A stretch of 63,674 bases of DNA, the filler included, from Stramenopiles sp. TOSAG23-2 (taxonomy: Eukaryota), in NCBI GenBank assembly GCA_900128395.1. It is 13 parts of 13 records of this genome, joined end to end, with 100 filler letters (N's around TTAATTAATTAA, not from the genome) between each part and the next. Parts side by side here need not be neighbours in the genome. Positions count along the whole stretch, not along the records: positions 1 to 5,084 come from LT650738.1; positions 5,185 to 10,261 come from LT650739.1; 11 more parts are not named here. The stretch is one strand, 5' to 3'. The translations under genes were made by a program, and so were the position numbers. The notes below the pieces were generated by a model, which saw only the letters and a list, made by a program, of their open reading frames with translations, made no database searches and was not told the DNA's origin. This document shows positions 171-54,985 of the stretch, in pieces (the first letter of the stretch is position 1; each line of letters begins with the position of its first letter).

Positions 171-2283
171 TTATTGTGTGAATATCCACATCCCTACCAC
201 TTGTTGATACCCGTTTGATCCATCTCTTTTATATTGTTGTATAGCATTTAATTGTGATTTCATTTTATCACTAAGTTGATTATTACCTAGTTCCAACCAA
301 TATAATGTATTGTTTGTTTTTAATACATCAATAATACTTTGTATTCCACTATCATCAGTAATATTATTATTATGTAGGTACAATAACGTTAATGTACTGT
401 TTGTTTTTAATCCTTCACCAATACTTTGTACATCAGTAATATGATTATTATATAGGTGCAATGTCGTTAATGTATTGTTTGTTTTTAATCCATCACCAAT
501 ACTTTGTACATCAGTAATATGATTATTATATAGGTGCAATGTCGTTAATGTATTGTTTGTTTTTAATCCATCTGTTTGTTTTTAACAATTCACCAATAGC
601 TAATGCATCCTCATCCGTGAGATTCTTTTTGCTTAAATTCACTTCCGTCTTCCCATCAAATTCTTTCTTCCATTTCGTATACGCAGCACTATTAATAACA
701 CTATTATCATTGCTATTATTATTATTATTATTATCGAGCGCACTTGCCTCCTCTCTTTTCTTTACTAATTTCTTTTCATGTGGTGGGGGCGGGCCGGGTG
801 GTACCTTTTTTCTATCAGCTAATTTCTTTCCACGTGGTGATGGATTATTGATATTTGATTTATTTATAGTTGGTCGTTTTGCTACATGTTCTTCACATTC
901 AGCAACAATTGCACTAAAGTCAGGTCGTTTATCTGGATTTTGATCCCAACATTTACACATTAAATTGTATAAAAATGCCCCATATTTATCTGTAATATGT
1001 TGTCTTATGAAATCAGATTTATTGCTTGTAGGTCGTTTGTTTCGAAGAACTGCACTGATGATTTTGCCAGGACTCATACCTTCCCATGGTACCTCACATG
1101 TCATTATTTCATACAATAAAATACCAAATGAATATACATCACATTTTTCCATAAATGGTTTATCATCATGCAATTCAGGTGCCATAAATCCAACCGTACC
1201 GGCCATTGACCCACCTTTTGAATGTTGTGTTGTATGCGTTACTAATGATTGTGCTTTTGAAATACCAAAATCACTTACTTTAGCCATTAAGATTGTAGAA
1301 CCATTACTATTATTATTATTACTTGAAACTAATAATATATTGGATGATTTTAAATCACGATGTTGAATATTATGTCTACCATATAATAATTTCATACCAT
1401 AGGCAATATCAAGTACAAAACGTTCCACTTCTTCTTTATCAAGTTCTTCTTCACGTGTATTTAAATATTTACGTAAACTTCCATGTTCCGCATACTCCAT
1501 AATTAATATTAATTTATCTTTCATGGTCGTGATAGCACCATTGACACATATGATTCCACGTGGTGCTGTACTAACTTGACACATTAATGCTAATTCACGA
1601 TTAAAATCTTTATATATTTTAGTTTGCTCCGGTATTGTAGCTTGGCTTAAATCAGCAATTTTAGCCGCACATTCAAGTCCTTGGTATTTTACTTTAAATA
1701 CTTCAGCTTGACCACCTTTACCAAGTTTATATTGATACTTTAAAAAATCAACATCGTTTTGTTTAATTTCATTTGATGCTGTTATATGATTAATAGCAAC
1801 TCTGGCTATTTTTTTATTTTCTGATTTTTCAATACGATGTTCTAATTTATCTAAACGTTCTTCAATTAATGGTATAGCATCCAATTTTTTATTTAATGCA
1901 TTGATTTGTTGAATGGTATTTTGATTTAAACCAATATGAATTAATGTCATTGCATCACGTAATTTTTCATTTAATTTTTTATATTTTGTTAAAAATGTTT
2001 TTGCAGTAAGAAATTTCGTTAAACCCCATTTTCCTTTATATTTATTTATGTGTTCATACAGTTCGTTCATGATTAGATTTAAATCATTTAATCCCTTTGT
2101 TTGTTCACGTGTAGGAATACTACCCTTTTGTTTCTCGTATTCATGTTTACATAATAATAATTGTTGTTGATATATCATTAATTGTTCTGATATTTTTAAA
2201 CATAAATCTTTATTTTCTTTCATTTGTTTTAATTGATCATATGTTTTTTTCGCAGCAGTTAATATGTTTGTAATCGTATCCAT
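171..2283 (-). CDS. MLKL-like N-terminal four-helix bundle + TKL-type Ser/Thr kinase + C-terminal RI-like leucine-rich repeats; one gene split by a frameshift at ~572
   Basis: ATG at 2283 (MDTITNILTAAKK...KFLTAK...KKLNEKLRD) resembles the MLKL N-terminal domain. Kinase motifs GKGGQAEV, AAK, HRDLKSSN, DFG, APE and DVYSFG are present. The LRR starts at VNLSKKNLTDEDALAIGELLKTN and continues in the 171..539 ORF frame (LHLYNNHITDVQSIGDGLKTNNTLTT). Confidence 0.85.
415..572. repeat. Two identical 78-nt (26-aa) LRR-coding units, with diverged copies toward position 300
   Basis: 421-498 is repeated at 499-572 (atactttgtacatcagtaatatgattattatataggtgcaatgtcgttaatg...). Confidence 0.9.
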
Positions 2284-3363
2284 GGTCTTATAAGCTATAT
2301 ATTTCCTCGCTCTCAAAACTAATAATAAAATTATATAATCAAAAATGAAAATTAACACAAAACAAACAAAACAACAACGTTTTTCAAAATATTAAAAAAA
2401 AAAAGAGTACGAATCGTAACAAAAGATGAATTCTATTCAAATTATTGCAAAAGTATAAAATATACAAGTACAATTAGAACAATAAATGATATATACACAT
2501 TTAATGCTTACTATGTACACCGATCGATCGATGTATGTATGTGTGTGTAGATATGTGTAGATATATATTTTATGAAATGTCTCCTATACTGTGTCCATGT
2601 TAATTGAATTAATGTCGGAGGGATATTTAATTTATATTCGACAAACACAAAATAAATAGATAGAAATGTGTACTCAAATGTATACCGGTGTATTGAAAAG
2701 ACTATTTTCGATAAGATGCATTTATACATACATTTACCCTTAACACATCTAATTATGGTACGAACTAAAGGACATTAGATCATATAATTAATTAACTAAC
2801 TAAAATATATATGAAGATTACATCACAGCAAAGATAAGGTAATTGGTTTATTTATGTATTTTTTTCCCTAATTGTCCCATAAATTGGAATAGTTCTCTAT
2901 AAAATATGAAAAAGTAACGAACCTCTAACTTATACGCCATCGTACTTGTAGGTCAAAAGTATATACTAAAAAATATGGATATTCCTATATATAAAAAACT
3001 CAACAAATTTTTTCGAGATTTCGATTTTGATCTTGATATTCTTGATTTGTTGTGTGGCTTTACGCTTTACGCTTTACATAGCATCAGAAATAATATAATA
3101 CCATTTAATCCATTATAAAGCATGATGGGTGTGAAAATTGGAAAAAATGTGGAAAATAAAATACATCACGGATTGTCACCTCTGGAGGCTATAAGATGTA
3201 TTTCATATGACCAATAATTTATATTAAAAATGGATAATTAGAAAATATCAAAAAGTCAAAAAATACTCATCTCTCTAAGCACAGTTCATGATATTATTAT
3301 TTGATAAATGATGAGAAATATTTGATGAATAATTTGAAATTCATCGTTTTCTATACGATAATC

Positions 3364-3560
3364 GAAGGTGAAATCTGGATATGGAAATCCACCAACAAAA
3401 ATTAAAAATATAAGATGAAATCAATAGATGAATATAAGACTTATTTCAATGCCTTAAATTACCAATATTACCATTATAGTATAACTATTTTTATATATAT
3501 CCGAACCATTGTTCAATGATCTCAAAAATAACACTATTCACTATTGAAAAAAAGGGAGGA
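3364..3560 (+). repeat. Dispersed non-coding repeat, copy 1 (homologous to 32674..32890)
   Basis: Colinear shared blocks: tgaaatctg..atggaaatcca, ttaaattac.aatatt.ccatt, tatatatccgaa, aaaataacactattca, aaagggagga. Confidence 0.7.
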
Positions 3561-3718
3561 TGCAAATATATAATATATATATATAATATAATAATAATAA
3601 ATACAAAGGCGGAACAAAAGGAAAGATGTAACACAAAGAGTTATTGATAATGTTTAACAACAACAAAAAAAGACTGGATAATTTATTTATTTTGTAGTTC
3701 ATTATACATTTATTAACC

Positions 3719-4330
3719 ATGCCAAAACGTAAACAATTTAGTAACGAGGAGGAGGATAGTAATAATACACCACGACGACGGAAAAGTAGTAGAGGAAATA
3801 ATAATCCAGATGGTGCATTATCGTCACCACCGATAAAAAATGTGACATCTAATAAAAAAAATAATAGTGAAAAGAAAAAAGGATTAGGTATAAAAGGTTT
3901 TGGATGGAAAGAACAAGATGCATGTATTGTTTGTAAACATTTTCGCGCAAAAAAACAATGTATTTATAATAAATGTAGGCGTTGTTGTGGTAAAGATGGG
4001 ACAACACGATGTCCATATCATCATGAAGAATATGAAGAGGAAAGACGTATTATTGAATTAGCAAATAATAATAGAAATAATATTTTATTAAATAATAGTA
4101 AAAATAAAAAGAATAGTGGAAATCAATACATGACAAAACATGCAAAACTGGATATATTTCAACCAATACCACGTGGCATGTTTCATGAAAAATCATTTAA
4201 AAACATTGGCGATACCGCATGTATATTTAATATCAATACAATGTTTATCAATGAAAAAAATGATTGGTTAGAAAATCAAGAACGTAAATATTTACGTAAT
4301 TTGAAATTTAATAATAGGAAATCTAGGTAG
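3719..4330 (+). CDS. Small basic protein with a SHI/STY (DUF702)-like Cys/His zinc finger
   Basis: CIVCKHFRAKKQCIYNKCRRCCGKDGTTRCPYH; basic NLS-like N-terminus (PKRK, RRRK). Confidence 0.65.
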   Translation: MPKRKQFSNEEEDSNNTPRRRKSSRGNNNPDGALSSPPIKNVTSNKKNNSEKKKGLGIKGFGWKEQDACIVCKHFRAKKQCIYNKCRRCCGKDGTTRCPYHHEEYEEERRIIELANNNRNNILLNNSKNKKNSGNQYMTKHAKLDIFQPIPRGMFHEKSFKNIGDTACIFNINTMFINEKNDWLENQERKYLRNLKFNNRKSR

Positions 4331-4504
4331 TTCTTTCGTAAACAAGAAAAGAGTAATCTCCGCGATGATTAGGTGGCGGTTTTTGAGAGAGATGTTTTGC
4401 TGCAATAATTTTAGTTAATCTATACTTAGTCATAGAACAAGGTTAAGAACATCATTTAAAAGTTTTTTATTAAACTCCCTGTGTTTTTGTATTTTTTAAT
4501 TTTT

Positions 4505-5084
4505 TTAATGATTTAAATCACCATTACCTCTTCCTACCCATCTACCATTTTCATCAAAACAATTTGCTTTTCCACCTTTTGAACGTAAAAGTGCAATGAC
4601 CTCTTGGCGAAGTGGACTATCATTATTATGATATGCCCATCGTCTTCTGATTCTGATTCTATACGATTACCATTTGCATCAAATTTATTTGCTTTTCCAC
4701 CTTTTGAACGTAAAAGTGCAATGACCTCTTGGCGAAGTGGACTACGATTATAATGATATGCACAGTCCAGGGGAGTGAACCCCCTGTCCTTCTTATTAAT
4801 GCTATCAAGAGTCATATGAGTTAATAACAATTTATTCAACTCAGTATTCGTTCTATTATACTCTGCTGCATAATGTAATGCATTCTCTCCATACCTATTT
4901 GCAATATTAGGATCAGCTTCACCTTGTTCAATTAAATATTTAACTACTTGGAAATGTTCGACCAATGCAGCTATCATTAAAGGTGTACGTTCCCAACCAT
5001 AACTATTTGTACCGACTTGACTCACCATATCTTTCAATGTCATATCATCTCTGTAGCCATTCACATCACCATTAGTAATATACT
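4505..5084 (-). CDS. Ankyrin-repeat protein, C-terminal fragment (5' end lost at contig edge), with a duplicated out-of-frame C-terminal module
   Basis: TPLMIAA..EHFQVVKYLIEQGEADPN, NALHYAA and TPLDCA ankyrin motifs; the frame is open to the contig edge. Confidence 0.8.
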
Positions 5085-5184
5085 NNNNNNNNNNNNNNNN
5101 NNNNNNNNNNNNNNNNNNNNNNNNNNNNTTAATTAATTAANNNNNNNNNNNNNNNNNNNNNNNNNNNNNNNNNNNNNNNNNNNN
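5085..5184. other. Artificial contig linker (N44-TTAATTAATTAA-N44)
   Basis: Identical 100-bp spacer with stops in all six frames. It recurs at 10262, 15428, 20588, 25745, 30901, 36055, 41198, 46338, 51476, 56607 and 61737. Confidence 0.98.
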
Positions 5185-6925
5185 CTAATAAATCATTTTT
5201 ACCATTATGATCACATTCATCTAATGCATCAATTAAAATAATTTGGCGTTTTGATGTAAATTCATCAGGTCGTTTTATATTTGCTAATGGTGCTCTTAAA
5301 ATTTTATCAAATAGTCCCGTCACATTTAATTCACTTAAACTTGCATTACTTAATCCTAATTCTTCTAATTTCTTACGATATTCTGGTATTTTCTCCGCTA
5401 ATTGATATGCAATAGAACATAATACATGTTTTGGATCACGTTTACGACTATCATCATGTCTACAAAAATGATGTGCAATGACAATTCCCATTCTAGTACG
5501 TACTAACATACTCATAATGCCAGTTTTACCCATACCAGCACCACCAGATAACAGAAATATACGTGAATTTAATTTAATTTCAACCCAATTATCAAAATCA
5601 TCGAAAGCCCATTTTCTTGTACCATTGTGAAAACGTACAACGGCACCATCAATTTCTAAATTGAAATTGAGAGGGTCTAAAATTGTTTTTAATGAGGTGG
5701 TAATTTCTAATTTTTGTAAAATTTGTGTTTGATTTTGTAATGATTGATCAACTTTCCCATCTAATATTTGAATACCTTTCATAATTTCATTAAATTCATG
5801 TTTTAATTCATCTTCTTTTAAATTTAAATGTTGTAATATTTCATTTTTTAAATTAGTATTACTATCATCAAATAACATTTTCAACGCTTCTTCTGATGTA
5901 CCCGAAAATTTATTACGCAAGTTATCATCTTTTTCTAACATTTTTACAATATCTTCTTTTGTATCAATTTGCATCGTAAATTGTGCAATTTTCATAGTTT
6001 CCATCATTTCTCCTTTTATTTCAATTAATGTTTCACGATCTATCTTTGCATTCCACCACGCCATAAATCCTGTACGTTTTTGTGATTCATCAATCGTTTT
6101 TATACCTTTCATTAATGCTGTATTAATTATACGCAATGGTTCAGTTTCTTGAAATAGTTTTAATCCTTTGATAATACTTTTTTCCATTAATTGTACAAAA
6201 TGTAAAAAATCTTGAATTTCAGCACGTAAACGATCTGGTTCTTGACATCGATCATAAATAGCTTTACAAGTTGTTACAAATACTTTTGCAAATGGTATTA
6301 CTTCAGAAATAACTTCAATACCATCTAATACATCGTTTAATAAAGCTTTTGATGTATCATCTAATGTTATGAAAGATGGTGTACGTATTTGATCTTCTTT
6401 TGTTATTGTACCATCTTTTTCTACTTTTTGTATTTCCTCTGTTGTATTATCAACGATAACGTTGGTTATTTCATCTACTGCATCAATGGTAGTTTCGGTA
6501 TAATCTAATGTATTTTCAATTTTATTTTCTTCTTCTTCTTCTTCTTCTTCTTCTTCTTCTTCTTTTACTTGTAGTAATAGATTTTTTGTTTCTTCTTTTG
6601 TTGTTTGTTTAGTTACATTATTGCTCTTTGCTTCCTCTGATAGTACTGTTTCATCTAATTTTGGTATTAATATTAACCTAGAATCACTTCCAGCAACTTC
6701 ACGTACAGTCCGTAAATTTTCTTTTCGTATTGAAAATGGTACTCCTTTATAACGAAAATGATAGTCATTTGGTAAGTTCGGAAAGTCTTTACTTTCTAAT
6801 AATATTTCTTTCCTTGCATCTTTTAATGTAGCATCTTCACATACATCAATAGCTACTATAGCTTCTCCATTGATAACAATAGTTACCGTGAATTGTGGCA
6901 TGATTTTTGTTTGTTTTTTCCCCAT
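5185..6925 (-). CDS. NLR/STAND-type protein: ubiquitin-like N-domain + acidic linker + MLKL-like helical domain + NACHT (NPHP3_N-type) NTPase; 3' truncated
   Basis: Walker A LSGGAGMGKT, HHFCRHDD..RDPKHVLCSIAYQLA and Walker B IILIDALDEC. The N-terminal beta-grasp-like segment is FTVTIVING..IDVCEDATLKDARKEI..YHFRYKGVP. First ATG in frame is at 6925. Confidence 0.85.
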
Positions 6926-31000: not shown

Positions 31001-31407
31001 AATAATTTACATTTGTATAAAGATGATTGAATCATATGATTTCAGCAAGGGAAAGGGGATGAAGAGAGAAGATCAAAAGGTTCAAAAATGCACTACAAAA
31101 TATTTCTGTGTGTGTGTGTGGAGAGAGAGTGGAGAGTTATCATATGATACGAGAGTACGTGTGGAGGATTGGTTAAAACGCGTGGTGGTGTGTTTACCAA
31201 TATATACGAAGACGTTTCGTATTGAGATATGTGTGTGTTTTAAAATTTTACGAACGTAATTGTTTTTCTTTTTGTAAATATTTAATGATTACCTGGGGGA
31301 GTAAAAGTAAAAAATTATTTTTATCTCTTGATTACGACTACACTTCTTGCACACTCTTCTCTGATTTTTTGTTTTACTTTTTTCTTTGTTTTTTATTTTT
31401 TATAAAG

Positions 31408-31629
31408 TTTAAATGCATCCCTTGACGTGTTCACATTACGTTGTTCGTCATAACTACAATATTGAACCATTATCTTCACACACATTCAAAATACTTCTTT
31501 TTTTTTTTCCATTTTATTTAAATGCATCCCTTGACGTGTTCACATTACGTTGTTCGTCATAACTACAATATTGAACCATTATCTTCACACACATTCAAAA
31601 TACTTCTTTTTTTTTTTCCATTTTATTTA
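31408..31629. repeat. Perfect 109-bp tandem duplication downstream of Rac
   Basis: aaatgcatcccttgacgtg... starts at 31411 and again at 31520. Confidence 0.9.
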
Positions 31630-43696: not shown

Positions 43697-45131
43697 CTAA
43701 AACCCATCAATATCATCATTCTCATCATCTTGCCATCCTAATATCCATTTCACACGTTCATAAATAGTAAATGTAATACCAGCAAGAAACATGAACCGTA
43801 TCATTCTTGGTTGCCAACCTTGATACCATCAATATCATCATTCTCATCATCTTGCCATCCTAATATCCATTTCACACGTTCATAAATAGTAAATGTAATA
43901 CCAGCAAGAAACATGAACCGTATCATTCTTGGTTGCCAACCTTGATATAATGATAATAAACCTTCTTCATGATACATTTTTGTACAACAATCAATAATTC
44001 CATTATAATAATAACCACCACCATGTTCCATGGAAAGTTTTTGTTGTGTCATTATTCTTGCTGTAAATACATCTAATGGATTTGTAATAACAGATGCAAT
44101 ACCACCAGCTAAACCACCTATTATTAATATTTGCGTATCATTAAAATCAATTTTAATACCATCATGTTTGGTGTAATATCGTTCTTCAATTTGTTGTTTT
44201 AATTTTTCATAGACAAGAAATTGCAATGCAGAATATGTACAATCAGTTAATATGCAAGCTCTATATCCAGAATATAATCCCAAAAATCCTTCATTATTTA
44301 ATATTGTTTTAAATGCATTGAAGGTACCTGTATATACACGTGGTGATACTTCCCCTGCATTGAGCCATGAATTGCCTAATTGCATTCTTGTTTTGACTAC
44401 TTCAAAAGGTGTATATACAATAGATGCAGCAAGTTCACTCATTGCACCTGCTGCTAAATATGTTGTTGATGTAATTTTTGCATTTTCCGTACCAAAATAT
44501 TTAAAACTTTGTGATTTAATAAATTCATAGGATCCAAAATAAATTGCATTACTAGGCAACGCGGACAATGCTGCTGCACTAACACCATTAAACCAACCTT
44601 TGATACCTTCTGTACGTAAGATATGAGCAGCCGTAAAGGTCATACTACGATATAACATGGAAGGACCACGTTTAACTTTTTGTCTAGTATTTACTGTATC
44701 AAATGGATGCATAATAATATCTGCTAAACTACCAGCAATGGAACCTGCAACGACACCATCTCTAACAGTATGATCCGTTGTTGTTGTATGATTTATATTG
44801 TTATTATTATTATTATTTCCATTGGATGAATTATTATTGTTTCTGCTAAACTACCAGCAATGGAACCTGCAACGACACCATCTCTAACAGTATGATCCGT
44901 TGTTGTTGTATGATTTATATTGTTATTATTATTATTATTTCCATTGGATGAATTATTATTGTTTTTTTTATTATTATTATCATTGTTTACATCATTTTCA
45001 TTTGTTTTTGCAATTACTTTTTTATTATTACCACGTCTAGCTTTTCTTGTCGATACACGTCTACGTAGTTGTACACCATCTTCAATGGTAAAACCTATTC
45101 GTTTTTTTCTTGGTTGATTTGGGTTTTCCAT
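43697..45131 (-). CDS. Mitochondrial carrier (SLC25) family protein, interrupted by two 122-bp duplications
   Basis: Three PxD/ExxK/xR signatures (HPFDTVNTR, TPFEVVKTR, NPLDVFTAR). Duplications lie at 44720/44842 and 43704/43826; the deduplicated ORF runs MENPNQ...GSLADIIMHPFD...DDIDGF*. Confidence 0.88.
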
Positions 45132-47229: not shown

Positions 47230-50200
47230 CTACACATCTTTGTCATTATTATGTGCATCATTCTCTGTTGTCTCCATCTTCTTCATATTCTTAGCCTCCT
47301 TTTTATGAGTCTTTTCTCTTTGTTCATATTTTTTCTTTTTTATCTCATTTTTACTCCCCTCATTATTATCAACAACATTATTATTATTTTCATTTTGCAT
47401 CGTTTCCTTCTTCGCGGTGGTTATTGCTTTTTTAAATTGTCGTCTTTGAAAGCCACTTAAACCAAGTTCTTCAAGATCTTCTTCTATGATATCATCTAAA
47501 TGTTTGGTTGATTTTATACCATGCTTAGCAAATTTTGTTTTATATTCACTTAATTCAGCAGTATCTAAAATTTCTGCAAATGATTCTCGTACTATTGGTA
47601 TTTCTAGCATGTCATCATTACTGATGCGCTGTTCTTCACCTAAAAGATTTTCTTCAATCGTATTTTTAGTGGAAACTATGTGATCACCTTTACCACCATA
47701 TGCAATCACAGCAAGAAAACCTTTCACAAATCCTAAATCTTTTCTTAATTTACCATTGCGTTTTAATTTCATAAAAATGTAAAATTTATACAACAAGGCA
47801 CATGCTCCGAGGCAACCACTAACGATACCAGCATAACGTAGTATTTTGGAAAATGGGCTTTCTATACAACTGCAATCTGCCGAACGATAATGGCCGGGGG
47901 GGCATTTTTGAAAACATTTGTTGTTGCATTTCTGATAATTAATACCACAAGTATTACACTTCCCATTTTTATTCGACCATTTTATACCGCAAATAGCGCA
48001 TACAGAGCCTGTCCACCCATAACCAACTTCATTACAATTACATTGGCCTGTTTTTTTATTGCAATCCCCTTTTCCTCCACATGGTGGGTAGCCTGGTTGA
48101 GATGGACAATGTGTACACCTTTTTCGCCCTGGTAATGATGCATATTGTCCGTCTGGACAGGGTTTACACATTCCACGAGGGAGTTTCTGGTTATCGTTAT
48201 ACGTTTTAATTGGACAATCGTCACATTTATAACGATTTAGAGCATTTGCGTCTGTGCCTGTCCCTGGTAAGTTGCATATTTTACATCTACGATCTGTTGT
48301 TGGTGTATTATTGACCGCTATATATTTGCCTGCACTACAATTAGTCAAAAATGTACATTTACGATTTGTTATTTGCGTACCATTTGCTTGCATGTATTGG
48401 TTTGCATTACATCTGGTCCAAAAGATACATTTATTTTCATTTTTATTTGCACTAAATTGACCATTGGAGCATGCTTTGCATTCGCGATCGGTTGTTAATG
48501 TGCCTTTTATTGATATATATTGACCTGCCATACAATTTGTCATTAGAGTACAATTATTTTCATTTTTATTTGTACTAAATTGACCATTGGAGCACGTTTT
48601 GCATTTGCGATCGGTTGTTGATGTGCCTGTCGTTGATATATATTGACCTGCGCTACAATTTGTCCAATATTTGCATTCACGATTTGTAGTTGGCGTGCCA
48701 TCTTTTAATATATATTGATTTGCTTTGCACGTAGTCCAAGAGAGACAATTATTTTTATTTTTATTTTTACTAAATTGTCCATCGGAGCATGTTTTGCATT
48801 TGCGATTGTTGGTTGATGTGCCATTTGTGGATATATATTGACCTGCAACACATGTGGTCATTGATGTACAATCATCTTCATTTTTATTTGTGCTAAATTG
48901 TCCATTCGAGCATGCTTTGCATTTGCGATCGGTTGTTAATGTGCCTTTTATTGATATATATTGGCCTGCCACACAATTTGTCATTGGAGTGCAATTATTT
49001 TCATTTTTATTTGTACTAAATTGACCATTGAAACATGCTTTGCATTTACGATCGGCGGTTGATGCGCCTTTCGTTGATATATATTGACCTGCGCTACAAT
49101 TTGTCATTGGAGTGCAATTATTTTCATTTTTATTTGCACTAAATTGTTCATTGTAGCATGCTTTGCATTTACGATCGGCGGTTGATGTGCCTTTTGTGGA
49201 TATATATTGACCTGCCACACAATTTGTATAAACTTTACACACAGAATGCACGCCTTTTTCATTTGGGTTATACATATTTGATGAGCATAAACATATTACT
49301 CCTAATTTTTCATTAGTAGTATTTACTTCATTGCATGTACCAGTAAATGGTGTTTCTGTACATACATTATCAGAACATGTTTTCCATGTTGGTGTACCAC
49401 CCCATTCAAAAATATTTTCATTATTAGGTGGGTTATTGAAATATGTATTTATTAATGATATGGTTGGTGAATCAAATGCATATATTCCATCGCCACCATG
49501 TACAGCCGTATGTTTACTTGTTACTGTGTTGTTGATGAAAGACGTTTCGCGTAGAATCACATCGGTGCCATCTCCGTATGTAGCATACATAGCATTACCA
49601 TCTCCATCATGCATCCGGATAAACATACCACCACCAGCAATCTCAGCTGTGTTCTCTTGGATCAATGAACCCTGTAGATATATATTTACTTGTCCATTAC
49701 GAGTACCTTGTGCATGTATACCGCCACCGCGAGTAGCTGTATTATTATATACAATAGATGAATACAAATATAATTCACCTCCTCGGACATAAACACAAAT
49801 AGATCCCCCATAATTATCAGGATCTTTACTATCAGGATCTGTACCATAAGTACTAACATCCCCACCAACTAATTTAACATAACGTAATATTAATTTCGCA
49901 TTTGCATTATTTAAATGAAAATGACGATGTTTATTCGCAGCAGTTATCGTAATTAAATTGTTCATATCGGTATTACTACCACTAATTTCTAACGTGTTGG
50001 TAACATCTACGTGGGTATTCCCAGAAATTGTACAAACCGTTGAACGTATAAATTTACCTGTATTTGTACTAGACACACAATCCCATTCTGGTGCAGGGAT
50101 GCATTTTAATTCTGTCATTGACGGAACAGATGATGCAACTGATACGTCAACTGGTACTTGATCATAAGAACAAATATCTGCATCAAAATTACACAAAACG

Positions 50201-51102
50201 CCTAATTTCGTATTTTTATTGTCTACTTCATTGCATGTACCAGTAAATGGTGCTTCTGTACATACATTATCAGAACATGTTTTCCATGTTGGTGTCCCAG
50301 TACCACCTTCATAAAAATTCTTCTTGTCCTTTAGATTATTCATAAATGTATTTATTAATGATATTGTTGGTGAATTCTCTGTGTATATTTCATTGCCTTC
50401 CTTCTCTTCACCCACCGCCAATACAGAGTTGGAGATGAAAGATGTTTGACGCAAAATTGCATCAGTATGAGTGTTTTCATCATTTCGTATATACATAGCA
50501 CCACCACGGTTACCGGCAATATTTGAAGCCAAAGTTGAACCTGTTATTCTAAAGGTCCCATCCTCAACTATCATACCACCTCCCCAACCATCACCATCAA
50601 TAATGGCTGAATTATCTATAATTCTTGAATCTTGTACATTTACATGAACTTGAACATTAGTTGCACCTTTTGCAAATATTCCACCCCCATTCTTAGCTTT
50701 ATTAGTAGAAATGATAGATGAATATAAATTTAATTCACCACCGTTTGTATAAATACATATTGATCCACCATCCCAATCAGGATAATCACTATAACTACTA
50801 ACATCCCCACCAACTAATTTAACATATCGTAATATTAATTTCGCATTTGCATTATTTAAATAAAAATGACGATGTTTATTCGCAGCAGTTATCGTAATTA
50901 AATTTTCCATGTCTGCCCGAATACCATTAATCTCTAAGGTCCCAGAAACTTCGATATGGTTATCACCCTTTATTGTACAATCATTTGATTTGGTAAAGTT
51001 GCCCGTATTTGAAGTGGTTGTACAATTCCATTCGTTTCCGCTACCTGCAAATACAGTAACTACACATATCTGGAGTATTATAACTACTTTCAACTTCATC
51101 AT
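47230..51102 (-). CDS. Type I surface protein: signal peptide, two pectin-lyase/Pmp-like beta-helix modules, TNFR-like Cys-rich repeats, EGF-like region, TM helix and cytoplasmic SAM domain
   Basis: GGxI / FxxN repeats (NKAKNGGGIF, NRGGAMY, SFISN); 41-aa CxAGQYIS..GT.T.DRKCK.C..GQFS repeats; TM YAGIVSGCLGACALLYKFYIF; SAM-like LSEYKTKFAKHGI..LDDIIEEDLEELGLSGFQRRQF. Confidence 0.85.
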   Translation of the reverse strand: MMKLKVVIILQICVVTVFAGSGNEWNCTTTSNTGNFTKSNDCTIKGDNHIEVSGTLEINGIRADMENLITITAANKHRHFYLNNANAKLILRYVKLVGGDVSSYSDYPDWDGGSICIYTNGGELNLYSSIISTNKAKNGGGIFAKGATNVQVHVNVQDSRIIDNSAIIDGDGWGGGMIVEDGTFRITGSTLASNIAGNRGGAMYIRNDENTHTDAILRQTSFISNSVLAVGEEKEGNEIYTENSPTISLINTFMNNLKDKKNFYEGGTGTPTWKTCSDNVCTEAPFTGTCNEVDNKNTKLGVLCNFDADICSYDQVPVDVSVASSVPSMTELKCIPAPEWDCVSSTNTGKFIRSTVCTISGNTHVDVTNTLEISGSNTDMNNLITITAANKHRHFHLNNANAKLILRYVKLVGGDVSTYGTDPDSKDPDNYGGSICVYVRGGELYLYSSIVYNNTATRGGGIHAQGTRNGQVNIYLQGSLIQENTAEIAGGGMFIRMHDGDGNAMYATYGDGTDVILRETSFINNTVTSKHTAVHGGDGIYAFDSPTISLINTYFNNPPNNENIFEWGGTPTWKTCSDNVCTETPFTGTCNEVNTTNEKLGVICLCSSNMYNPNEKGVHSVCKVYTNCVAGQYISTKGTSTADRKCKACYNEQFSANKNENNCTPMTNCSAGQYISTKGASTADRKCKACFNGQFSTNKNENNCTPMTNCVAGQYISIKGTLTTDRKCKACSNGQFSTNKNEDDCTSMTTCVAGQYISTNGTSTNNRKCKTCSDGQFSKNKNKNNCLSWTTCKANQYILKDGTPTTNRECKYWTNCSAGQYISTTGTSTTDRKCKTCSNGQFSTNKNENNCTLMTNCMAGQYISIKGTLTTDRECKACSNGQFSANKNENKCIFWTRCNANQYMQANGTQITNRKCTFLTNCSAGKYIAVNNTPTTDRRCKICNLPGTGTDANALNRYKCDDCPIKTYNDNQKLPRGMCKPCPDGQYASLPGRKRCTHCPSQPGYPPCGGKGDCNKKTGQCNCNEVGYGWTGSVCAICGIKWSNKNGKCNTCGINYQKCNNKCFQKCPPGHYRSADCSCIESPFSKILRYAGIVSGCLGACALLYKFYIFMKLKRNGKLRKDLGFVKGFLAVIAYGGKGDHIVSTKNTIEENLLGEEQRISNDDMLEIPIVRESFAEILDTAELSEYKTKFAKHGIKSTKHLDDIIEEDLEELGLSGFQRRQFKKAITTAKKETMQNENNNNVVDNNEGSKNEIKKKKYEQREKTHKKEAKNMKKMETTENDAHNNDKDV
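48270..49230 (-). repeat. Coding tandem array of 123-nt (41-aa) Cys-rich units with interspersed shorter units
   Basis: Unit offset is 123 nt (e.g. tgacctgc at 49085 and 49208); six full units plus partial ones. Confidence 0.85.
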
Positions 51103-51326
51103 GTTGTTCTTTTTTTGTTATATATTATCTATACTAATATAGTATATGAATCTTAATATCAATATTCTTTCTGAAACTCTGAAACATGTAAAACTGTAAT
51201 AAATTATTATTCACATGGAGAATATCAGAAAATAGCTAAGCCTTCGCTTCATTAACATAATGTACACTATAACAAAATTAACACTATTTTATTTTTCATA
51301 TGTATTTGTAACAAATATAGCAAACT

Positions 51327-51418
51327 GCAACTTAAACTGCCACTATCGCACTACTATCCAGCTATCCTCCGAGCAACTTAAACTGCCACTATCGCACTAC
51401 TATCCAGCTATCCTCCGA
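51327..51418. repeat. Perfect 46-bp tandem duplication
   Basis: gcaacttaaactgccactatcgcac... at 51327 and 51373. Confidence 0.9.
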
Positions 51419-54875: not shown

Positions 54876-54985
54876 TACGTACCACGCACGTTCGTATAGG
54901 AATTAGGATTGAGTAAATTAAAAAATAAATTACGTACCACGCACGTTCGTATAGGAATTAGGATTGAGTAAATTAAAAAATAAAT
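54876..54985. repeat. Perfect 55-bp tandem duplication
   Basis: tacgtaccacgcacgttcg... at 54876 and 54931. Confidence 0.9.

What the first reader, a model, noticed from the sequence alone, without database searches (positions are those of the whole stretch)
171..6925. Two independent MLKL-like effector genes in 13 arbitrarily sampled contigs suggest an expanded immune repertoire
Seen: the contigs are ordered by length, so they are effectively a random genome sample, yet two carry MLKL-like domains on different scaffolds (kinase-LRR and NACHT). An ankyrin gene and an LRR array with signs of repeat turnover are also present. Inference: this lineage has a large, modular NLR/MLKL-like family built by domain shuffling, comparable to fungal NLRs, possibly as defence against giant viruses.
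Basis: inference. Interest (0 to 1): 0.72.

Follow-up and report, generated by a model that had tools for sequence, protein, structure and literature searches.

The report
Two MLKL-type helical-bundle receptor genes
Two genes on separate small contigs of an AT-rich marine protist each join an MLKL-type "killer" helical bundle to a sensor scaffold, much as in fungal and plant immune receptors, but whether the family is large could not be tested.

Summary
The window is 13 contigs of about 5 kb, sorted by length and joined by N spacers.

Gene A (contig 1, minus strand, 2283 to 171) has:
- a Pfam MLKL_N domain at 39.7 bits, above the cut-off of 27;
- a TKL kinase with intact catalytic motifs;
- 26-residue LRRs. 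As assembled, 19 extra bases put them out of frame.

Gene B (contig 2, minus strand, 6925 to 5185, cut by the contig end) has an MGxxxT start, an unassigned ~90-residue N-terminal domain, a helical region and an NPHP3_N/NACHT P-loop. Relatives continue into WD40 repeats, and one adds ankyrin repeats.

Gene B's helical region does not itself match MLKL_N. Four relatives match it at 21-24 bits over nearly the whole profile. A profile-profile comparison links it to gene A's domain (Prob 71-73%, E 3-4e-5; 0 of 100 block shuffles reach that score). Fold searches were uninformative.

The observation largely holds. Module shuffling is supported. The "repeat turnover" signs resemble assembly duplications that also break housekeeping genes. 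Nothing bears on giant viruses.

The parts
1924..2271 (-). Gene A: MLKL_N-type four-helix bundle (residues 4-119 of P0001; ATG at 2281-2283)
   Evidence: Pfam PF22215 at 39.7 bits, cut-off 27, profile positions 2-113 of 142. SesA is a weak second match (15.6 bits).
1741..1923 (-). Gene A: ~60-residue linker between the bundle and the kinase, brace-like by position
   Evidence: The profile of gene B's family aligns collinearly across the later bundle helices and this linker. No structure was predicted for it.
901..1740 (-). Gene A: TKL-type protein kinase with its catalytic motifs present
   Evidence: PK_Tyr_Ser-Thr 160 bits. Best solved relatives are CTR1, MLT/ZAK, B-Raf, MLK and Roco4. Motif strings located: GKGGQAEV 1699-1722, CAAK 1660-1671, HRDLKSSN 1339-1362, SDFG 1264-1275, MAPE 1174-1185.
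574..900 (-). Gene A: low-complexity linker (proline run, Asn run), then a first LRR-like unit ending in ...IGELLKTN
   Evidence: Translation; coordinates.
554..585 (-). Frame break: a 13-nt word occurs twice, 19 nt apart, and 19 extra bases shift the frame. The kinase ORF stops at 526-528.
   Evidence: Read from the sequence. The 78-nt array starts at 572. There is no GT...AG pair of plausible intron size.
174..572 (-). Gene A: LRR array of 26-residue units (78-nt period, 2.8 copies at 95% match, then diverged units) and a C-terminal tail; stop at 171-173
   Evidence: LRR_4 40.8 bits and LRR_1 26.4 bits; TRF; translation P0063.
4534..5084 (-). Ankyrin-repeat ORF whose N-terminus runs off the contig end. 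It holds a 97-nt duplication at 125-nt spacing (D10), which is not a multiple of three.
   Evidence: Ank_2 73.4 bits. Similarity to the ankyrin tail of the L002 receptor is only generic (33% identity).
6908..6925 (-). Gene B: start MGKKQT, which fits the N-myristoylation pattern MGxxx[ST] (pattern recalled, not tested)
   Evidence: Like starts occur in P0025, P0004, P0023 and L001-L003, and internally in P0011. P0005 lacks it.
6656..6901 (-). Gene B: conserved ~90-residue N-terminal domain, possibly a ubiquitin-like beta-grasp, followed by a variable acidic linker
   Evidence: Conserved in P0025, P0004, P0005, L002 and L003. No Pfam match. Atlas leads only, scores 0.77-0.82.
5906..6358 (-). 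Gene B: helical bundle, a divergent MLKL_N / HeLo-like domain (residues ~190-340)
   Evidence: AF2 models are all-helical, pLDDT 75.5 and 73.5. Relatives match MLKL_N at 21.0-24.2 bits over profile positions 2/3-120/126. hhalign to gene A's type gives Prob 71-73%, E 3-4e-5. The family profile finds gene A as the only other hit among 585 window ORFs (E 2.9e-4).
5624..5905 (-). Gene B: second helical stretch between the bundle and the NTPase
   Evidence: Helices H160-232 of the model. Weak fvmX5 match (20.7 bits, below cut-off).
5204..5623 (-). Gene B: NACHT-class STAND NTPase, N-terminal part. Walker A GGAGMGKTG at 5519-5545; Walker B-like IILIDALDECD at 5210-5242. Cut by the contig end at 5185.
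   Evidence: NPHP3_N 83.2 bits, cut-off 24.8; motif coordinates. P0025 (75% identical) continues into an APAF1_C-like helical part and WD40.

Best explanation
Both genes are modular receptor-type proteins. Each couples an MLKL_N / HeLo-like four-helix bundle, the membrane-attacking module of MLKL, fungal HET-S/HELLP and plant CC-NLRs, to a sensing and switching scaffold.

Gene B is an 'all-in-one' NLR-like STAND ATPase. In order it has a probable N-myristoyl anchor, a small N-terminal domain, the bundle, a NACHT-class NTPase and, by its relatives, C-terminal WD40 repeats with or without ankyrin repeats. The inferred mechanism is that ligand binding to the repeats drives nucleotide-dependent oligomerisation. 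That clusters the bundles at a membrane and permeabilises it.

Gene A joins the same class of bundle, through a brace-like linker, to a kinase that looks catalytically competent and to C-terminal LRRs. The inferred mechanism is that LRR-sensed input switches the kinase, which releases the bundle. That would put RIPK3-like and MLKL-like roles in one chain.

Shown here: the domain content, the homology class of the bundles and the architectures of relatives. Inferred: membrane attack, cell death and an immune role. The size of the family in this genome is unknown.
For: Gene A:
- MLKL_N 39.7 bits (cut-off 27), kinase 160 bits and LRRs.
- Kinase motif strings are present.

Gene B:
- NPHP3_N 83.2 bits with Walker A and Walker B-like motifs.
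- P0025 (75% identical, 433 of 578) adds NPHP3_N 98.6 bits, a weak APAF1_C match and the start of WD40.
- Metagenome relatives L001-L003 (54-58% identical in the bundle) are bundle-NPHP3_N-WD40. L002 goes on into ankyrin repeats after an in-frame TAG.

Bundle homology:
- 4 of 23 family sequences scanned match MLKL_N as their top Pfam family. P0007 scores 21.0 bits and L001-L003 score 22.3-24.2 bits, over profile positions 2/3-120/126 of 142.
- The family profile hits gene A alone among the other window ORFs: E 2.9e-4 among 585 ORFs, next best E 2.5.
- hhalign of the family against gene A's N-terminus plus six pre-kinase regions gives Prob 73.2%, E 3e-5, score 40.2 over 98 columns. The reversed control scores 11.3. 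1 of 100 column shuffles and 0 of 100 block shuffles reach 40.2. The extended family gives Prob 70.8%, E 3.8e-5.
- 7 of the 31 weak PDB rows for the family profile are MLKL chains, E 0.026-0.46.

Literature (passages only):
- HeLo-like domains sit on about 20% of annotated fungal NLR N-termini, almost always with NACHT, and HELO-LIKE-NACHT-WD40 is a listed architecture (PMC4986451).
- 'All-in-one' NLRs and the 4HB-HeLo link are described in PMC12881547.
Against: - Gene B itself has no MLKL_N match, even at E up to 1. All matches by relatives are below Pfam's cut-off of 27.
- 19 of the 23 family sequences scanned do not match MLKL_N. These include P0025, P0004, P0005, P0008, P0011, P0012, P0021 and P0023; many are fragments.
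- Direct BLASTP between the two domains finds nothing. hhalign against gene A's domain alone gives Prob 2.9%, E 0.015.
- The reciprocal HMM, built from the kinase-side N-termini, does not find gene B among the 585 window ORFs. It finds gene B's relatives only at 10-15 bits.
- The top PDB row for the family profile is an unrelated lectin neck (E 0.004), and no MLKL row is significant.
- P0012 and P0023 instead give weak SLATT_6 matches (18-21 bits).
- Gene A's LRRs are out of frame as assembled.
- There is no functional, expression or copy-number evidence.
Confidence: 0.6

Rival explanations
1. There is no expansion. The genome holds only these one to three bundle-bearing genes, and their co-occurrence in one window is a coincidence noticed after the fact.
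For: - None of the other 11 contigs holds a further copy.
- Gene B's subfamily is rare in public data: 22 hits at E <= 1e-3 among 1.84 billion representatives.
- Gene A's bundle has no detectable relative by the word-indexed search: 0 of 457 candidates.
- Each of the three metagenome contigs shows one copy among unrelated neighbours within the flanks read.
- The scan covers very many windows, so some coincidences are expected.
Against: - Under random sampling, two or more in about 30 genes has p of about 4e-6 to 7e-4 for families of 2-20 in 15,000 genes.
- Seven distinct sequences, 55-88% identical, cover the same 59 residues of gene B's bundle in public data. It is unknown whether they are paralogues or orthologues.
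Confidence: 0.35
2. Gene B's helical region is an unrelated helical or coiled-coil spacer. Only gene A is MLKL-like.
For: - Gene B has no Pfam match of its own.
- The reciprocal HMM misses gene B.
- The sequences are K/E/L-rich in an AT-rich genome, which can inflate profile scores.
Against: - Four relatives match the same Pfam family over nearly its full length, and it is their top match.
- The hhalign score lies more than 5 SD above the block shuffles: 40.2 against a mean of 19.1 and SD of 3.8.
- No other helical ORF of the window is hit by the family profile.
Confidence: 0.13
3. The proteins are ordinary signalling or ciliary scaffolds, not cell-death or immune receptors. Gene B would be NPHP3/NWD1/TEP1-like and gene A a LRRK-like kinase, with the bundle acting as a regulatory or membrane-docking module.
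For: - The best NTPase model is the N-terminal domain of nephrocystin-3.
- The organism encodes flagellar proteins (CLAMP, TTL).
- Gene A's kinase resembles the MLK, Raf and Roco4 kinases.
Against: In passages of PMC4986451 and PMC12881547, an N-terminal HeLo-class bundle joined to NACHT and WD40 is the architecture of fungal cell-death NLRs. Gene A has no Roc or COR domain.
Confidence: 0.15
4. Gene A is a decaying pseudogene. The 19-nt frame break is real and cuts the LRR sensor off.
For: As assembled, the kinase ORF ends 15 codons after the break and the LRRs lie in another frame. No plausible intron restores the frame.
Against: - Both ORFs are otherwise clean.
- The assembly carries eight head-to-tail local duplications, at least one of which breaks a housekeeping gene. 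An assembly or amplification artefact is at least as likely.
Confidence: 0.3

Closest known systems
Fungal 'all-in-one' NLRs: HeLo-like (HELL)/SesA - NACHT - WD40
   Same: An N-terminal MLKL-class helical bundle is fused directly to a NACHT-class NTPase of the NPHP3_N type, with WD40 repeats in the relatives P0025, L001 and L002. The architecture is listed for fungi in PMC4986451 (passages).
   Different: - The source is a marine protist-like organism, not a fungus.
- There is an extra MGxxx[ST] start, a ~90-residue N-terminal domain and an acidic linker ahead of the bundle.
- The bundle is so divergent that it falls below Pfam's cut-off.
- One relative adds ankyrin repeats after the WD40 repeats.
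Animal MLKL (necroptosis executioner)
   Same: Gene A has the MLKL_N bundle, then a ~60-residue linker, then a kinase-fold domain, in the same order.
   Different: - MLKL's C-terminal domain is a pseudokinase (passage of PMC12881547). Gene A keeps the lysine, HRD, DFG and APE motifs.
- Gene A adds C-terminal LRRs.
- No RIPK3 or RHIM partner was looked for.
Brown-alga LRR kinases with a pre-kinase MLKL_N-like region (for example P0055, P0034, named Ectocarpus siliculosus by their source)
   Same: The bundle lies directly before a TKL kinase, and LRRs sit in the same chain. P0055 scores MLKL_N 25.8 bits at residues 565-653, with the kinase from residue 680. Gene A's N-terminus matches 4 of the 36 kinase hits at E <= 1e-3.
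   Different: The LRRs are N-terminal there and C-terminal in gene A. Identity is only 27-28%.
Plant MLKLs and CC/RPW8-type NLRs (ZAR1 resistosome, Pm13)
   Same: A HeLo / 4HB-class bundle acts as the executioner on a kinase-like or NLR scaffold (passages of PMC12881547; abstract start of PMC10951266 in the listing).
   Different: The NTPase class differs: NB-ARC in plants, NACHT here. No sequence-level link to the plant proteins was tested.

Membership tests
Pfam MLKL_N (PF22215), gene A | HMM score at or above the gathering cut-off of 27 bits | tested here: met
   39.7 bits, E 4.4e-10, residues 4-119 against profile positions 2-113 of 142.
Pfam MLKL_N (PF22215), gene B | HMM score at or above the gathering cut-off of 27 bits | tested here: not met
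   No match at E <= 1 for gene B. Its relatives P0007, L001, L002 and L003 score 21.0, 22.5, 22.3 and 24.2 bits, all below 27.
MLKL_N / HeLo-like superfamily, gene B | Remote homology by profile-profile comparison, and a four-helix-bundle fold | tested here: inconclusive
   - hhalign gives Prob 71-73%, E 3-4e-5, above 100 of 100 block shuffles.
- The models are helical: H27-43, H45-70, H77/78-99 and H102-155/156.
- Fold searches gave only generic helical matches: best Foldseek E 0.2 and 0.43, best VIA Z 9.7 and 9.6.
Animal MLKL orthologue, gene A | C-terminal pseudokinase (catalytic motifs lost) activated by RIPK3 phosphorylation | tested here: not met
   The HRDLKSSN, SDFG, CAAK and MAPE strings are present, so this is not a pseudokinase by motif. 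RIPK3 dependence cannot be tested here.
NLR / STAND NACHT NTPase, gene B | NACHT-class P-loop NTPase domain with Walker A and Walker B | tested here: met
   NPHP3_N 83.2 bits, cut-off 24.8. GGAGMGKTG and IILIDALDECD are present. The classic PF05729 model scores only 14.8 bits, below its cut-off of 26.7.
NLR / STAND NACHT NTPase, gene B | C-terminal ligand-sensing repeats (WD40, ANK, TPR or LRR) | tested here: inconclusive
   The contig ends inside the NTPase. Relatives P0025, L001 and L002 carry WD40, and L002 also carries ANK. L003 ends at residue 849 without repeats.
ROCO / LRRK kinases, gene A | Roc GTPase and COR domains between the LRRs and the kinase | tested here: not met
   No Roc or COR match in P0001 at E <= 1. 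The kinase domain resembles Roco4 (E 6e-22).
N-myristoylated proteins, gene B | MGxxx[ST] start (pattern recalled) and modification by N-myristoyltransferase | not testable with these tools
   The motif is present in gene B, P0025, P0004, P0023 and L001-L003, and internally in P0011. It is absent from P0005.

The most novel reading that the evidence does not exclude
Free-living marine protists of this lineage carry a diversified repertoire of membrane-anchored (N-myristoylated) 'all-in-one' receptors. In these, an MLKL-class bundle has been shuffled onto NACHT-WD40(-ANK), SAM-NB-ARC-like and active-kinase-LRR scaffolds. They act as abortive-infection or cell-death immunity in single cells, for instance against viruses. 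Gene A would be a single-chain equivalent of the RIPK3-MLKL pair.
Probability: 0.2. Interest if true: 0.7.

Novelty: new variant of a known kind. Interest (0 to 1): 0.4.

Why it matters
HeLo / MLKL-class bundles are the shared executioner of necroptosis, fungal incompatibility and plant resistosomes. Documented 'all-in-one' bundle-NACHT-WD40 receptors are mainly fungal.

Finding the same logic in an uncultured marine protist, with a lipid-anchor motif and with a version fused to an apparently active kinase plus LRRs, would do two things. It would widen the known host range of this cell-death module. It would also give compact candidates for testing regulated cell death in unicellular eukaryotes.

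The claim of an expanded repertoire is the more interesting part, and it remains untested. Five literature searches returned no paper describing such receptors in marine protists. That covers only the held library, and supplements were not seen.

Tried and rejected
- Whole-genome scan: no genome is held.

Sequence searches that gave little:
- Direct BLASTP between the two helical domains: nothing.
- Word-indexed search with gene A's bundle: 0 of 457 candidates.
- Gene B against solved structures by sequence: only two chance haemagglutinin rows.
- Protein atlas: scores of 0.77-0.84, which are leads only. For the bundle these were fungal clusters, one with MLKL_N on 36% of members, plus DUF7708, PigL_N and NPHP3_N clusters. 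For the N-terminal domain they were ubiquitin-like folds.
- Metagenome scan with the wide alignment failed because no block was conserved enough. A closer alignment gave three loci.
- Viral contig scan: 108 pattern matches, no relative.

Fold searches:
- Foldseek against PDB with both models: no match at E <= 0.001.
- VIA wide with both models: best Z 9.7 and 9.6 (ALIX). No MLKL chain appears among the 50 rows shown. Plant CC domains (Rx-CC Z 8.1, WeiTsing 8.4, a wheat resistosome 7.5) are tied with unrelated bundles.

Ideas tested and dropped:
- The WD40 ORFs of contigs 4 and 11 as missing C-termini of gene B: no specific similarity to P0025.
- The ankyrin ORF as the C-terminus of a gene-B-like receptor: only generic ankyrin similarity to L002.
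- An intron to bridge gene A's frame break: the only GT...AG pair is 22 nt long and removes a conserved glycine. Rejected as implausible (by eye).

Full report
**What the window is.**
- The 63,674 bases are 13 contigs (5084, 5077... 5030 bases, the last cut at 1838) in descending length. They are joined by 44 N + 12 bases + 44 N.
- GC is 29-35%. ORFs are long under the standard code.
- Gene content is eukaryotic and includes flagellar proteins (CLAMP, tubulin-tyrosine ligase), a mitochondrial carrier, Ras, dynamin and a TNFR-repeat/SAM protein.
- One small DNA run (X1) holds 0.85 of the sampled words of gene A and is probably the source. Thirteen DNA runs hold 0.21-0.35 of the words: twelve are marine, seawater or aquatic metagenomes and one (X10) is labelled organism B. 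None was laid, so they may hold relatives or only parts.

**Gene A (contig 1, minus strand).**
- From the ATG at 2281-2283, the ORF gives Pfam MLKL_N (39.7 bits, cut-off 27; residues 4-119 against profile 2-113 of 142), a ~60-residue linker and a TKL-type kinase (PK_Tyr_Ser-Thr 160 bits).
- The closest solved kinases are CTR1, ZAK/MLT, B-Raf, MLKs and Roco4.
- The glycine loop, the CAAK lysine, HRDLKSSN, SDFG and MAPE are all present. By motif this is an active kinase, unlike the MLKL pseudokinase.
- After a proline- and Asn-rich linker comes a first LRR-like unit ending in ...IGELLKTN. The ORF stops 15 codons later.
- The LRR array proper (174-572) lies in another frame. It has 26-residue units and a 78-nt period, 2.8 copies at 95% match.
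- Read by eye, a 13-nt word occurs twice, 19 nt apart, at 554-585. So 19 extra bases sit exactly at the head of the array. No GT...AG pair of plausible intron size bridges the break.

**Is that break biology?**
- The window holds eight head-to-tail two-copy duplications: 231, 127, 122, 122, 109, 55 and 46 nt, and 97 nt at 125-nt spacing. Their identity is 90-100%.
- The 127-nt duplication breaks an RRM gene, and the 97-nt one sits in the ankyrin ORF.
- Such duplications in housekeeping genes point to an assembly or amplification artefact class. I therefore do not read the LRR and ankyrin irregularities as evidence of repeat turnover.

**Gene B (contig 2, minus strand, 6925 to 5185).**
- It starts MGKKQT. 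A conserved ~90-residue domain follows, then an acidic linker, about 250 residues of helices, and NPHP3_N (83.2 bits) with Walker A GGAGMGKTG and IILIDALDECD. The contig then ends.
- The classic NACHT model scores only 14.8 bits.
- A 973-residue protein from a protist protein set (P0025; 433 of 578 identical) continues into an APAF1_C-like helical part and the first WD40 blade.
- Three metagenome loci, 54-58% identical in the bundle, encode the same layout:
  - L001 has NPHP3_N and then at least four WD40 repeats.
  - L002 has NPHP3_N and WD40, then an in-frame TAG, then more WD40 and seven or more ankyrin repeats.
  - L003 has NPHP3_N/NACHT and ends at residue 849.
- Their neighbours within the flanks read are unrelated genes: an RCC1-like protein, a SASA esterase and a SNF2 helicase.

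**Is gene B's helical region MLKL-like?**

Against:
- Gene B has no Pfam match of its own at E up to 1.
- BLASTP against gene A's domain finds nothing.
- hhalign against gene A's domain alone gives Prob 2.9%, E 0.015.
- An HMM built from gene A's N-terminus plus six pre-kinase regions does not find gene B among the 585 window ORFs. It finds gene B's relatives only at 10-15 bits.
- Fold searches with two AF2 models (pLDDT 75.5 and 73.5; helices at 27-43, 45-70, 77-99 and 102-155) gave only generic helical matches. No MLKL chain appears in the rows shown.

For:
- An exhaustive search found 22 relatives at E <= 1e-3 in 1.84 billion representatives. I dropped one as a cysteine-repeat false positive. 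I left three more out of the alignment because they cover only the NTPase-proximal end.
- Of 23 family sequences scanned with Pfam, four match MLKL_N as their top family: P0007 at 21.0 bits, L001 at 22.5, L002 at 22.3 and L003 at 24.2. Each covers profile positions 2/3 to 120/126 of 142. The other 19 do not match; many are fragments.
- The family profile hits gene A as the only other ORF in the window (E 2.9e-4; next best 2.5). The match is collinear over the later bundle helices and the linker.
- Profile against profile gives Prob 73.2%, E 3e-5, score 40.2 over 98 columns. The reversed control scores 11.3. 1 of 100 column shuffles and 0 of 100 block shuffles (mean 19.1, SD 3.8) reach the real score. 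With the three metagenome proteins added, the result is Prob 70.8%, E 3.8e-5 over 103 columns.
- Seven of the 31 weak PDB rows for the family profile are MLKL chains (E 0.026-0.46). The top row is an unrelated lectin neck.

I put the odds that gene B carries a divergent MLKL_N / HeLo-class bundle at about 85%.

**Modularity.** The same class of bundle occurs in several architectures:
- with NACHT-WD40 and NACHT-WD40-ANK (P0025, L001-L003);
- with a SAM domain and an NB-ARC-like P-loop (P0011: SAM_TNK 38.1 bits, NB-ARC 16.6 bits, which is weak);
- with a kinase and C-terminal LRRs (gene A);
- in brown-alga proteins with N-terminal LRRs, the bundle directly before the kinase. P0055 scores MLKL_N 25.8 bits at residues 565-653, with the kinase from 680.

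That supports module shuffling. The fungal parallel is explicit in the literature. HeLo-like domains are among the commonest fungal NLR N-termini, almost always with NACHT, and HELO-LIKE-NACHT-WD40 rows are tabulated (PMC4986451, passages). 'All-in-one' NLRs and the 4HB-HeLo link are reviewed in PMC12881547 (passages).

**Family size.**
- Within the window, Pfam scans of 32 of the 35 ORFs of 150 aa or more, plus the LRR ORF, found no third copy. Neither did a six-frame search with the family profile.
- Two of about 30 genes gives a Clopper-Pearson 95% interval of 0.8-22%. Under random sampling, two or more hits would be unlikely unless the family had roughly 100-200 members.
- That calculation ignores post-hoc selection of the window. 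It also ignores a likely bias of contig ends towards repeated genes: gene B and the ankyrin ORF are both cut by contig ends.
- Public data hold seven distinct sequences, 55-88% identical, over the same 59 bundle residues. They come from two protist-set proteins and five environmental assemblies. Whether they are paralogues or orthologues cannot be told.
- A scan of viral contigs found no relative. Nothing here bears on giant viruses.

**Mechanism (inferred).**
- For gene B, the repeats would sense a ligand. The NACHT module would oligomerise on nucleotide exchange. The clustered bundles, held at a membrane by the probable myristoyl anchor, would insert and permeabilise it, as in HET-S/HELLP, MLKL and CC-NLR resistosomes. 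The MGxxx[ST] start is found in gene B, P0025, P0004, P0023 and L001-L003, and internally in P0011, but not in P0005. The pattern itself is recalled, not tested.
- For gene A, the LRRs would gate an active kinase whose (auto)phosphorylation frees the bundle from the brace-like linker.
- None of this was tested.

**Verdict.**
- The second MLKL-like call is a remote but reasonably supported homology.
- The 'repeat turnover' signs are probably assembly artefacts.
- Modular shuffling is supported.
- A large repertoire and an antiviral role are untested.
- The architectures are variants of known fungal, plant and animal kinds in an unusual host.
- Five literature searches returned no description of such receptors in marine protists. 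Supplements were closed and could hold relevant tables.

Noticed in passing
window 42269-42522, 43210-43671, 43679-43922, 44711-44954, 31386-31603, 54876-54985, 51327-51418, 4543-4764: Eight head-to-tail two-copy duplications of 46-231 nt at 90-100% identity. The 127-nt one splits an RRM gene into two overlapping ORFs that share the same 40 or so residues. This looks like an assembly or amplification artefact class and warns against reading frameshifts in this assembly as biology.
   Followed up: partly
window 47233-51117 (-): A 1295-residue ORF with six or more TNFR/NGFR cysteine-rich repeats (115 bits) and a C-terminal SAM domain of the SAM_TNK type. The DNA repeats have a 123-nt period (D1). 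The same SAM type heads P0011, a distant relative of gene B with a bundle and an NB-ARC-like P-loop.
   Followed up: no
L002 8737-8739: An in-frame TAG interrupts a WD40 blade motif (DGT*IVSGS). The reading frame continues for 555 more residues of WD40 and ankyrin repeats. It could be a sequencing error, a pseudogene or stop read-through. It is a single case.
   Followed up: no
P0003 (protein from a protist protein set): This gene model joins a tyrosine-recombinase (Phage_integrase) N-terminal half to a gene-B-type bundle that is 86-90% identical to gene B. It is possibly a chimeric gene model or an insertion of a mobile element.
   Followed up: no
P0012 and P0023 (distant relatives of gene B's bundle): Their bundle regions give weak matches to SLATT_6, a bacterial two-transmembrane effector domain of SMODS/SLOG conflict systems. 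Scores are 18.1 and 21.0 bits, below the cut-off of 27.1. This is a possible lead to a link with bacterial membrane effectors, or it may be chance.
   Followed up: no
window 3719-4330 (+): A 203-residue ORF between gene A and the ankyrin ORF has a cysteine/histidine cluster (C-x2-C ... C-x2-C-C ... C-x-x-H-H) and no Pfam match. It is possibly a small zinc-binding protein.
   Followed up: no
window 6656-6901 (-): The ~90-residue N-terminal domain of gene B is conserved in its relatives but matches no Pfam family. The protein atlas gives only weak leads to ubiquitin-like folds (Rad60-SLD, CIDE-N, PB1; scores 0.77-0.82).
   Followed up: partly
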